Shown here piece after piece: positions 278-2,581 of a stretch of DNA of 41,665 nucleotides (the first letter of the stretch is position 1; each line of letters begins with the position of its first letter). The notes beneath the pieces were generated by a model. It made no database searches. It was not told where the DNA came from and saw only the letters and a list, made by a program, of their open reading frames with translations. Source of the stretch: Thermoplasmata archaeon (GTDB lineage: Archaea > Thermoplasmatota > Thermoplasmata > Methanomassiliicoccales > Methanomethylophilaceae); assembly GCA_030539515.1 (NCBI GenBank), contig JAUNXZ010000001.1, positions 1-41,665 of the forward strand, given 5' to 3'. The position numbers and the translations under genes are program-made.

Positions 278-1075
278 TCGGTGGCGGTCGCCGTAGCAGT
301 CGGTGCCACGCACCCCGGCCTCGTCGCACAGCGCGTCCAGCACCTCCACCGCCTCGGGGGACGGGCGTATGCCCATGCGCTCCAGCCTGCGGGTGTCGAC
401 GAGCCTGAGGTTCAGCCCGTCGCGGTACACGGCGCGGATGCCCGCCGCGACGAGGGCGTCCACAAGCTCCGCCTCGGAGCCCTCCAGCGTGGACATGACC
501 GGGGCGACGAGCGCGTAGGTCTCGACGCCGGCGTCGAGCAGCCCCGTTATGGCCCGCAGCCTCGCCTCCGGCAGCGGCGCGCCGGGCTCGGTCATCTTGG
601 ACACCCGGTCGTCCACCGTGGTGACGGTCATGCCAACCACCGAGTCCATCCCCGAAAGCAGATCGAGGTCCCGCAGGATCAGGTCCGACTTGGTGTGGAT
701 GTGGACGCGCCTGCCCTTCGCGGAGAGGACCTCGAGGCACTGCCTGGTGAGCCTGAAGCGGCGCTCGGCGCCCTGGTACGGGTCGGTGACGGTGCCGATG
801 CCGATCGTCCCGTCCACGTACGGCAGCTCCCTGCAAAGCCTGTCGATGAGGTTCCTCTTGACCCTCACGACCCTCCACTCGGACAGCTCGGAGTGCGTGT
901 GCCCCGGCGCGTAGCAGTAGATGCACCCGTGCTCGCATCCCCCGTAGGGGTTGATCGCGTAGTCCATCTCCGGGAGCCCGGACGGCGAGAGCGCCCTGGA
1001 GCACTCGACGAGCCTGAACGGCCCGTCCCACTCCGGGGGCTCCCCGGTGAAATCGCCCAGCGTGGTGTCGGTAAT
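278..1075 (-). CDS. Radical SAM protein, spore photoproduct lyase-like / DNA-repair associated
   Basis: NPYGGCEHGCIYCYA (CxxxCxxC), GTVTDPYQ and HTKSDL motifs. The frame is open and family-like (CSRALSPSGLPEMDYAINPY) upstream of the first ATG (967) to about ATT at 1075, so the start is uncertain. End placed at CGA 278-280; standard TAA at 242-244. Confidence 0.8.
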
Positions 1076-2345
1076 AGTCCTCGATCCTCCTCTGGACGCG
1101 CCAGTCCCTCATCACGTCGGAGTTCGCGATCCACCCGTCGCGCTTGATGTCCATCATGGATTCGACCCTTGTCAGCACGTCGTCCATGGTCTCGAAGTGC
1201 TCCGGCTCCGTGCGGAGCGCGGCGCGCACGTTCTCCCTCACGTTCCACACGCCGACGGGCATCACGTAGCCCGGATGGGCCTCCCTCATTATGACCGCGC
1301 CCGCCGTGCGGCCCTCCTCGATGAGCAGCTCGTTGACGGCCATCCTCGACGCGTAGTAGCATCCGCCGATGTGGGCGTACTCCGTCCTCCCGTCGAAGAA
1401 CTCGGAGTCGTGGATGACGTCCACGGTCCTGCCGGAGGGGTTCCATGTGGTGTTCGGGTACCACGCCTCGATGAGCTCGAACCTCCAGGTGCAGGGCATC
1501 AGCATGATGGCCCACCTGTTGTCCAGCTCCTGCCAGGTGTAGAGGCGGAAGTCGTCGATGGTGGGGTTCCACTTGGTCGTCTTGAGGAGATCCTTCCCGA
1601 TGATGTCGTCCACGGCGGTGATGCTCCACCTGGTGGGGACGAAGCGCCTGCGCTTGTCCACGCCCATGGTCCCCACGGAGAAGGCCTTCTGGATCTCGGA
1701 GATCAGGGTGCCGTTGCGGTACGCGGAGACCACCGCGTCGGTGGCCTTCATGTCCACGTCGTAGAAGCTCCTCTCCAGGTTCCTCTCGAACCTGCCGTTG
1801 CCGAGGGTCATCTGCTCCATGCGCGCCGACGGCCCGAAGGGCTCCACGTTGTCGTCGAGGATGACGCGGCCCTTGGGCTTCTGGGCGAAGGAGGCCTCCA
1901 CGTCCACCGGGCGTTCCGTGAGCGCGAGCTCCTGCACGTTGTCCACGATGCGGCCGTACTTCCGGAAGTCGGTGGCGTCGATGCGGTACTTCCCGCGGAC
2001 CAGGCGGAACCTGAAGTCCACGATCTCGTCGATGCTCTTGCCGACCCAGCGCTCCGGGGTGCCCATGATGGAGGTGTCCCCGAACTCCGGCGGGAGAAGC
2101 GGTCCGATGTCCACCTTCGGGTAGCCGTACCTGCCGACGAAGACGGCGGGAGGGCTCGAGCCCGCCAGGTCCTTGGCGTCGATGAGCGGGCGGGCCTTCA
2201 TCTGGGAGTAGAACTTGATCATCAGGGGGCAGCGGTCCTTGCCGCAGAGCCTGTGGGCGCCCTTGCATATGGAGCACAGGCCGCTCTTGAGCTCGGCGCC
2301 GTTGTAGGCCGCCGACTGCTCGAAGAAACCCGTTGCCGTGACCGT
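1068..2345 (-). CDS. nreA: Nre (NreA) archaeal PCNA-interacting DNA repair protein
   Basis: Absent from the ORF track because it has no standard stop. N-terminal CSICKG..LCGKDRCP zinc finger, GSSPPAVFVGRYGYPKV, VPTRWSITAVDD, GGCYYASR, PVGVWNVRENVR, and C-terminal PIP-like QRRIEDYY followed by CGA (1068-1070). Start is non-canonical (ACG 2345/2339/2333 or frameshift). Confidence 0.9.
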
Positions 2346-2581
2346 CCCGACTCCCCCTCATCACGGGATGCCGAACGGGGATAAAAACAGTGAGCGGGAA
2401 GAGGTAAGCAGGAGCCGGTTCGGAATCTCTTCCGTTGCAAGGGGACCGGTCCCTGCTATGATTTCGGGATTCCCTCAGAGTTAAAATAACTTTTCGCGAA
2501 TCTCGGGTTAACGGCGTTGATATTCCTGAAAGCATGGGATTAAAGCCTGTTAATATAGTGCAATCAGGATATCTCCCGGAA

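What the first reader, a model, noticed from the sequence alone, without database searches (positions are those of the whole stretch)
2320..2364. nre 5' end: no canonical start; a 13-codon uORF ends in TTT-CTT-CGA, resembling a +1 shifty stop
Seen: the Nre frame is closed by TGA at 2358-2360 and has no ATG/GTG/TTG before the zinc finger (first ATG at 2222 is after it). An out-of-frame ATG (2361) reads MRGSRDGHGNGFL and hits CGA at 2320-2322 in the context GGG TTT CTT CGA G. The +1 frame there (TTC TTC GAG) is the Nre frame. Known: bacterial prfB shifts +1 at CTT-TGA. Inference, two options: (a) programmed +1 frameshifting at a weak CGA stop controls Nre synthesis; (b) initiation at ACG (2345, 5 nt after GGGGAG, the same spacing as the M50 gene SD), which would also fit CpG-context C-to-U editing. 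A homopolymer error in the G5 run (2353-2357) is a third, trivial explanation.
Basis: partly seen in the sequence, partly recalled or inferred. Interest (0 to 1): 0.75.

Follow-up and report, generated by a model that had tools for sequence, protein, structure and literature searches.

The report
ACG start codon, not a frameshift
This archaeal DNA-repair gene has ACG exactly where its relatives have the normal ATG start, behind a well-placed ribosome-binding site, so it likely starts there directly; the proposed frameshift signal is a common by-product of the protein's own codons.

Summary
The sequence facts hold; the frameshift reading does not. ACG at 2345-2343 sits where relatives have ATG. 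A sister species (G071, 89.6% DNA identity) keeps the ACG behind a stronger Shine-Dalgarno (SD) site, but has no uORF ATG and no G5 run. CTT-CGA is the off-frame reading of conserved Phe-Phe-Glu codons: it occurs 1,051 times in this genome's coding segments and in 70 of 124 nre 5' ends, only 13 with an upstream ATG. Seven of 8 nre genes lacking ATG have a strong SD, against 4 of 116 with ATG. Other genes swap ATG for ACG, CTG, ATA, ATC or ATT at the aligned start; C-to-U editing cannot repair most of these. Best reading: likely SD-anchored initiation at a near-cognate codon, used by about 1% of genes here. No reads or RNA were available. The CGA-stop premise is supported, and this scan noted it before in other genomes. 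Side find: an unclassified covarying RNA hairpin at 2458-2406.

The parts
2478..2495 (-). BRE/TATA-like archaeal promoter element, predicted; would start the transcript near 2460
   Evidence: Read by eye from sequence; AT-rich box at a similar distance before the hairpin in most of the 10 loci printed. No TSS data.
2406..2458 (-). Conserved RNA hairpin (12-bp lower stem, one-sided CCCUUGC bulge at 2444-2436, short upper stem-loop); 5' leader element or small RNA; no Rfam family
   Evidence: 63 sequences: 86.3% of cells paired, 14 of 16 pairs with two-sided changes, slid controls 39-47%; 31 of 36 genus genomes, 0 of 24 from other families; Rfam scan gave only two chance-level hits
2320..2361 (-). 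Out-of-frame 13-codon uORF (ATG 2361 to CGA 2322-2320), weak SD; not conserved
   Evidence: same ORF in G012 and G077, stopped after 3 codons in G017, no ATG in G071 or G081
2358..2363 (-). TGA TGA closing the nre frame upstream
2351..2357 (-). Shine-Dalgarno-like GGGGGAG, offset 12 from the ACG (genome mode 12-13)
   Evidence: 16S 3' end of three relatives carries the usual anti-SD
2343..2345 (-). ACG, likely start codon of nre
   Evidence: 23 codons before the first Cys, as the ATG of G017, G077, G081, G080, G033, G036 and G061; ACG also in G071 and G012
2319..2327 (-). TTC TTC GAG (Phe-Phe-Glu of Nre); its off-frame reading is the supposed CTT-CGA slip site
2226..2276 (-). Cys4 metal-binding motif of Nre, upstream of the first ATG (2222)
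   Evidence: conserved in the nre loci; described for Nre proteins in PMC4929162 (passages)
1068..2345 (-). nre coding sequence, 425 codons plus CGA
   Evidence: Pfam Nre_N 1.1e-98 and Nre_C 9.5e-37; dN/dS 0.083 against G071
1068..1094 (-). C-terminal PIP-type motif QRRIEDYY followed by CGA (1070-1068) where relatives have TGA
   Evidence: CGA in 7 and TGA in 15 of 22 full-length genus loci
278..1081 (-). Downstream radical SAM gene; AGG at 1081-1079 (or ATT at 1075) in place of an ATG; predicted to end at CGA
   Evidence: AGG in 19, ATG in 9, AAG in 1, other in 3 of 32 loci at that position; Pfam Radical_SAM

Best explanation
The nre gene carries ACG at the position where relatives carry ATG, and ribosomes likely initiate there directly, held in place by an SD site at the optimal distance, to make a normal 425-residue Nre with its Cys4 motif that likely ends at a CGA stop. 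Shown: position, conservation, SD spacing, intact and constrained ORF, and the same ATG-to-near-cognate swaps in other genes. Inferred: that initiator Met-tRNA reads ACG with a middle-position mismatch, that output is lower than from AUG, and that the strong SD makes up part of the loss. The uORF and CTT-CGA are incidental; at most the weak upstream ATG diverts a few ribosomes in G000 and G012.
For: G071 has the same ACG, an SD score of 12 at offset 12, no ATG in the uORF frame and a TGA in it. The two changes between G000 and G071 in codons 2-9 are silent in the nre frame but change the uORF (N to D, F to I). dN/dS is 0.083 over 425 codons. Of 124 distinct nre 5' ends, 116 have ATG (median SD 5.0; 4 with SD of 9 or more); of the 8 without, 7 score 9 or more (ACG x3, ATT x3, GCG x1). 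GmhA: ACG in 5 of 40 genomes, all with GGAGGT. HTH gene: CTG 16, ATG 9, TTG 3, GTG 1, ATA 1 of 30 genus loci, and ATT in 2 of 24 from other families, both with the best SD of that set. In G000, among 29 of 1,223 genes without a canonical start, 9 of 32 near-cognate codons sit at an SD against 7 of 273 other codons (Fisher p 3e-6). ACG initiation with N-terminal Met is shown in E. coli (10.1101/063800, passages).
Against: No RNA, ribosome or protein data. Two of the three ACG genomes (G000, G012) do carry the 13-codon uORF. G012 has GTG one codon after its ACG, and the three ATT loci have an in-frame ATG 9 codons on, so only G000, G071 and G062 strictly need a non-canonical start. G071 has one in-frame ATG 30 codons further up, inside the hairpin and before an in-frame CGA. 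Near-cognates are not enriched at SD sites over all genes (ACG 10 against 9.5 expected), so the use is rare. Untargeted comparisons with G030 and G012 recovered no ACG start under strict filters. The SD score is my own, and kin are not independent: the ACG group may be one origin or two (the clade test did not finish). In E. coli ACG gives only 0.1-1% of AUG output.
Confidence: 0.8

Rival explanations
1. Ribosomes start at ATG 2361, pause at the leaky CGA stop and slip +1 from CUU to UUC into the nre frame (prfB-like), as the main route to Nre.
For: The geometry permits re-pairing. CGA behaves as a stop, and tRNA-Arg(UCG) has an irregular anticodon stem. The same 13-codon ORF exists in G012 (ACG) and G077.
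Against: Absent in sister G071, which also lacks a canonical start. Stopped after 3 codons in G017. G077 has it beside a normal ATG. Only 13 of 70 CTT-CGA-bearing 5' ends have any upstream ATG in that frame, at lengths of 10-25 codons and SD 2-6.5. Conservation upstream of the site is in the nre frame. The motif occurs 1,051 times off-frame.
Confidence: 0.05
2. Site-specific C-to-U editing converts ACG to AUG (and CGA to UGA, GCG to GUG) in mRNA.
For: ACG starts, CGA stops and two GCG codons at aligned start positions (G062 nre, G015 UPF0179) are all C-before-G versions of canonical signals. No RNA was available to exclude it.
Against: CTG, ATA, ATT, ATC and AGG at aligned starts cannot be repaired by C-to-U. 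In 33,314 aligned codons, CGG was not among the codons listed opposite Trp, nor CGC opposite Cys, nor ACG opposite Met, and ACG faces Thr in 391 of 521 cases. ATT starts occur in another family. Only one PF00383 deaminase match per genome in 5 of 5 genomes.
Confidence: 0.05
3. Translation starts at ATG 2222 and makes an Nre without the Cys4 motif, or the gene is barely expressed after losing its ATG.
For: Haloarchaeal NreA lacks the Cys4 domain and works (PMC4929162, passages). The Pfam Nre_N match begins at residue 33.
Against: The first 120 residues from ACG are 98% identical to G071 while synonymous divergence over the gene is 0.45; all four Cys are kept; the SD is kept at the ACG.
Confidence: 0.06
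4. The G5 run at 2357-2353 is an assembly error; with one G fewer, ATG 2361 would be in frame.
For: The 16-nt distance is one base off frame; no reads could be checked.
Against: The same 16-nt distance occurs in G017, G077 and G012; G071 has ACG with no such run or ATG; the in-frame product would carry 5 extra residues and have a weak SD (score 4).
Confidence: 0.03

Closest known systems
Native near-cognate starts of E. coli infC and pcnB (AUU), and initiation measured from all 64 codons (10.1101/063800, passages)
   Same: A conserved gene begins at a codon one base from AUG behind an SD; ACG gives an N-terminal Met at low level.
   Different: Here the codon is ACG in an archaeon, and it swaps with ATG among sister species rather than being fixed; no link to initiation-factor autoregulation was found (aIF1 has ATG in the 30 loci read).
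SD compensation of weak start codons in prokaryotes (Belinky, Rogozin, Koonin 2017; PMC5622118, passages)
   Same: Weaker start codons go with stronger SD sites.
   Different: That study covers GUG and UUG, found 2 AUG-to-CUG and 1 AUG-to-AUU switches in 61,358 starts, and 'ACG' does not occur in its main text. Here CTG, ACG, ATA, ATC and ATT recur at aligned starts.
Near-cognate initiation sites in Haloferax volcanii ribosome profiling (PMC7261190, passages) and CTG small ORFs in Methanosarcina mazei (PMC11456600, passages)
   Same: Archaeal ribosomes do initiate at near-cognates (about 30% of putative alternative sites in H. volcanii).
   Different: Those are alternative or small-ORF sites, set aside by the H. 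volcanii authors as possible false positives; here they are the only start of conserved genes. Their Supplementary Figure S8 was not seen and may list ACG.
prfB (RF2) +1 frameshift at CUU-UGA (recalled, not looked up)
   Same: CUU before a stop-like codon, with UUC available in the +1 frame.
   Different: No conserved upstream ORF, no conserved site independent of the protein motif, no feedback logic.
Archaeal NreA/NreB PCNA-binding repair proteins beside SplB-like radical SAM genes (PMC4929162, passages)
   Same: About 400 aa, N-terminal Cys4 motif, C-terminal PIP motif, radical SAM neighbour.
   Different: ACG start, CGA end, and an upstream hairpin not in Rfam.

Membership tests
prfB-type programmed +1 frameshift | Initiating upstream ORF conserved across relatives | tested here: not met
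   13 of 70 CTT-CGA-bearing 5' ends have an upstream ATG, at variable lengths; absent in G071
prfB-type programmed +1 frameshift | No in-frame start in relatives, so that the shift is required | tested here: not met
   116 of 124 nre 5' ends have an in-frame ATG
prfB-type programmed +1 frameshift | P-site codon able to re-pair in +1, next to a slow stop | tested here: met
   CUU to UUC before CGA; CGA is stop-like; but the motif is common by chance
prfB-type programmed +1 frameshift | Amino-acid constraint switches frame at the site | tested here: not met
   Changes upstream of the site are silent in the nre frame, not the uORF frame
SD-anchored near-cognate initiation | Near-cognate codon aligned with the AUG of orthologues | tested here: met
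SD-anchored near-cognate initiation | SD at the organism's usual spacing, with a matching anti-SD | tested here: met
   offset 12, mode 12-13; 16S 3' ends of G030, G008 and G014; the 16S of G000 itself was not found in the assembly
SD-anchored near-cognate initiation | No canonical in-frame start upstream of the conserved N-terminus | tested here: met
   G000 and G062 have none; G071 has only an ATG before an in-frame CGA; G012 and the ATT loci have alternatives
SD-anchored near-cognate initiation | Protein N-terminus or initiation footprint at the codon | not testable with these tools
   needs proteomics or ribosome profiling
C-to-U mRNA editing of start and stop codons | cDNA differs from DNA at the C | not testable with these tools
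   no run was listed
C-to-U mRNA editing of start and stop codons | Aberrant codons restricted to C-for-T forms, including internal Trp, Cys and Met sites | tested here: not met
Archaeal Nre family | Nre_N and Nre_C domains, Cys4 motif, C-terminal PIP motif | tested here: met
   QRRIEDYY at the end
Archaeal H/ACA guide RNA (for the upstream hairpin) | Two-sided pocket, K-turn or K-loop, and a 3' ACA box (features recalled) | tested here: not met
   one-sided bulge and no conserved ACA in the 63-sequence alignment; no Rfam match

The most novel reading that the evidence does not exclude
This lineage edits mRNA at C-before-G positions of translation signals, turning ACG into AUG, GCG into GUG and CGA into UGA, which would be mRNA editing in an archaeon and would explain both the ACG starts and the CGA stops. 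It is not excluded because no RNA could be examined, but it leaves the CTG, ATA, ATT and ATC starts unexplained.
Probability: 0.05. Interest if true: 0.9.

Novelty: new variant of a known kind. Interest (0 to 1): 0.38.

Why it matters
If true, these methanogens start about one gene in a hundred at codons that gene callers ignore (ACG is not even an alternative start in table 11; recalled), so conserved proteins such as Nre are annotated short and lose whole motifs. Sister species differing only in ATG versus ACG or CTG, with matched SD changes, give a natural series for measuring how strictly archaeal aIF1/aIF2 select the start codon on leadered mRNAs. The result also removes a false lead: CTT-CGA next to a CGA-stop code is not evidence of frameshifting. 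The upstream hairpin is a separate, unclassified RNA candidate worth its own study.

Tried and rejected
Read check and RNA check: no run was listed. Untargeted start comparisons with 400 kb of G030 and 573 kb of G012 were underpowered: (loose filter) was noisy but showed the nre ACG opposite ATG; (strict) anchored 35 and 65 starts and showed no ACG. Loss of aIF1 as a cause: not found in G000 (82% complete) but present in 41 of 41 high-quality relatives, with ordinary sequence and ATG start in the 30 loci read; the initiator tRNA of G000 looks ordinary. Start candidates dropped: C32 (coding continues upstream), C37 (orthologue too distant); C145, C169, C45, C115, C148, C71 and C123 were not compared with relatives (8 of 16 candidates were searched; the GmhB row was examined as a junction). 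Genome censuses of G012, G030 and G060 used only part of each genome and found 0, 1 and 0 near-cognate cases, too few to compare lineages. The one-clade test for the ACG genomes did not finish. A second promoter at the T-tract 2387-2381 was considered; the better promoter-like box lies before the hairpin, and in some relatives the hairpin is too close to the start for a second promoter. Targets for the hairpin bulge: 7-nt complements exist in 23S rRNA, in the tRNA-Leu(CAG) 5' end and in the nre Cys-Lys-Gly codons, all post hoc and near chance; not accepted. The bacterial promoter scan and the tRNA search added nothing. Paper searches for CGA stops or non-canonical starts in this group, ACG starts in archaea and archaeal mRNA editing listed nothing describing them; the library lacks most subscription papers.

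Full report
Setting. The window is contig C73 of G000 (1.68 Mb, 82% complete, 64% GC). No call names the organism. From gene content (corrinoid proteins, TAG-interrupted genes) and an earlier scan note I infer a Methanomethylophilaceae-type methanogen. The gene is nre on the minus strand (Pfam Nre_N and Nre_C), between ppx and a radical SAM gene.

Observation. The nre frame is closed by TGA TGA at 2363-2358, has no canonical start before the Cys4 motif at 2276, and its first ATG is 2222. ATG 2361 reads 13 codons to CGA 2322-2320. ACG 2345 lies 5 nt behind GGGGAG, as does the ATG of the M50 gene.

The CGA premise. CGA is the rarest sense codon in coding cores (40 of 389,697) and is the first codon after the coding segment in 29 of 109 long-tailed genes, against 4.0 expected; 16 control codons gave 0-2. 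With CGA allowed, 219 of 1,155 well-defined gene ends are CGA. Against G012, own CGA faces TGA 8 times, CGA 7 times and TAA once among 77 anchored ends. nre itself ends at CGA right after its PIP-type motif, where 15 of 22 full-length genus loci have TGA and 7 have CGA. A tRNA-Arg(UCG) with an irregular anticodon stem remains. Earlier scan notes report the same in other genomes, so this part is not new to the scan.

The frameshift idea fails. Phe is TTC in 4,680 of 4,703 codons, so any Phe-Glu/Asp pair reads CTT CGA off-frame; there are 1,051 such sites in 1,384 coding segments. Nre has a conserved F-F-E/D near its N-terminus. Of 124 distinct nre 5' ends (genus genomes, other families, paralogues and metagenome loci), 70 carry the motif, and 13 of those have an ATG upstream in that frame, at 10-25 codons and with weak SD scores. 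The sister species G071 (89.6% DNA, 95% protein identity) has no canonical start near the conserved N-terminus either, yet has no uORF ATG and has a TGA in that frame. Against my reading: G012, the other ACG genome, and G077, an ATG genome, do have the same 13-codon ORF; G017 has the ATG but stops after 3 codons. A minor role for the uORF in G000 cannot be excluded.

The ACG. It lies 23 codons before the first Cys, exactly where G017, G077, G081, G080, G033, G036 and G061 have ATG (MVTAT.FFE). G071 has the same ACG with GGGGTGAG at offset 12; G012 has ACG with GGAGGTG at offset 13. The genome's modal offset is 12-13, and relatives' 16S rRNA ends in the usual anti-SD. The ORF is under purifying selection (dN/dS 0.083 against G071), and the two G000/G071 differences in codons 2-9 are silent in the nre frame but not in the uORF frame. 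ATG-started nre genes have weak SDs (median 5.0, 4 of 116 at 9 or more); 7 of the 8 without ATG score 9-13. Caveats: G012 has a GTG next to its ACG, the three ATT loci have an ATG 9 codons on, and G071 has a far-upstream ATG before an in-frame CGA. On the tree G000 and G071 pair (support 91), G012 groups with ATG-bearing G017 and G077 (93), and the ATT loci form a separate clade; whether ACG arose once or twice is unresolved (114 rows).

The G-run error. [quoted passage not shown] Reads were not available.

It is not confined to nre. Of 1,223 G000 genes scored, 29 lack a canonical start nearby; in these, 9 of 32 near-cognate codons but 7 of 273 other codons sit at an SD. Checked in relatives: GmhA has ACG in 5 of 20 loci, all with GGAGGT, and ATG in the other 15 and in 20 further genomes; an HTH gene has CTG 16, ATG 9, TTG 3, GTG 1, ATA 1 of 30; an MFS gene has ATA or ATC in 4 of 5 relative loci; a sodium symporter has CTG in G000 and G071; UPF0179 has ACG only in G000 (28 ATG, 1 GCG of 30); a corrinoid gene has ATA only in G000. 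Outside the family the HTH gene has ATT in 2 of 24, with the strongest SDs of that set. Over all genes near-cognates are not enriched at SD sites, so this is a tolerance used by roughly 1% of genes, not a new rule.

Editing. CTG, ATA, ATT, ATC and AGG cannot be repaired by C-to-U. In 175 orthologue pairs (33,314 codons) CGG, CGC and ACG behave as Arg, Arg and Thr and were not among the codons listed opposite Trp, Cys and Met (the lists show the 14 commonest). One PF00383 deaminase match per genome was found. Two GCG codons at aligned starts and the lack of RNA data keep a site-specific version barely alive.

Mechanism. Shown: codon position, conservation, SD spacing, constraint. Inferred: the 30S is anchored by the SD, initiator tRNA accepts ACG, and Nre is made at reduced level with Met at position 1. 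In E. coli ACG gives Met-initiated protein in the 0.1-1% class (10.1101/063800, passages). A review states that aIF1 rejects AUU in a Sulfolobus system and that archaea allow GUG and UUG (PMC4705826, passages); aIF1 is ordinary in these relatives, so no cause for the tolerance was found. Whether the weak start is selected to keep Nre low or is a tolerated drift offset by the SD is open; its patchy spread favours tolerated drift.

Surroundings. A promoter-like box at 2495-2478 precedes a hairpin at 2458-2406 with strong covariation and an invariant CCCUUGC bulge (the 63 rows were selected by that motif, so its invariance within the alignment is by construction). G-U pairs and folding favour the nre strand. 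A model of it finds 31 of 36 genus genomes (one copy in 29, two matches in 2) and 0 of 24 from other families under strict filters. In G009 nre is missing from the locus and the hairpin remains before the radical SAM gene. The radical SAM gene also lacks a canonical start in G000: AGG stands where 9 of 32 loci have ATG.

Comparison and verdict. It works like infC/pcnB-type near-cognate initiation with SD compensation (PMC5622118, passages), already glimpsed in archaeal ribosome profiling (PMC7261190 and PMC11456600, passages). It is not a prfB-type frameshift. A conserved native ACG start in this group was not found in the searches made. New variant of a known kind; interest 0.38.

Noticed in passing
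window 2458-2406 (minus strand); alignment A2, model R1: Covarying RNA hairpin with a conserved one-sided CCCUUGC bulge right behind a promoter-like box, upstream of nre in 31 of 36 genus genomes, none in 24 from other families, no Rfam family; kept in G009 where nre is missing from the locus. Candidate leader element or small RNA; probably the most promising lead at this locus.
   Followed up: partly
G000:C143:2443-3477 (L142); L293-L312, L467-L486: gmhA and gmhB are in one frame joined by CGA in all 20 loci of the first set. In 20 further genomes the junction is CGA in 7, in-frame TAG in 4, TAA with gmhB in another frame in 7, and AAG or AGA in 2. Fits a leaky CGA stop; an earlier scan note reports the CGA junction.
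   Followed up: partly
window 1081-1068: The radical SAM start overlaps the nre PIP box: Asp-Asp codons give ATG, Glu-Asp codons give AGG at the same place (19 AGG, 9 ATG, 1 AAG of 32 loci). An AGG or ATT start, or re-initiation after the CGA/TGA of nre.
   Followed up: partly
L261 (G062 nre) and L278 (G015 UPF0179): GCG stands at the aligned start behind an SD at offset 12; G062 has no canonical start upstream of the Cys4 motif at all.
   Followed up: partly
G000 contig C133, 1324-1398: tRNA-Arg(UCG) has an A-A mismatch at the base of the anticodon stem and a short D arm, possibly a weak decoder of CGA.
   Followed up: no
G000:C115:1568, C145:17979, C169:1526, C45:12739, C148:1463, C71:10098, C123:319: Further genes with ATC, CTG or ATA near the start and no canonical start close by, six of the seven with an SD at offset 12-13; not compared with relatives.
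   Followed up: no
G000 contigs C37 (about 2190, plus strand) and C40 (minus strand): Two genes have an ATG followed within 3 codons by an in-frame TGA or TAA and then a long coding segment: pseudogenes, errors or readthrough.
   Followed up: no
L007, L009, L012, L262: Several genus genomes have two nre paralogues in tandem; where the hairpin was recovered it precedes only the first.
   Followed up: partly
window 13386, 22293, 24916, 26734, 29078, 32478, 33947, 35256, 38895, 278: Ten more genes of this window are predicted to end at CGA.
   Followed up: no
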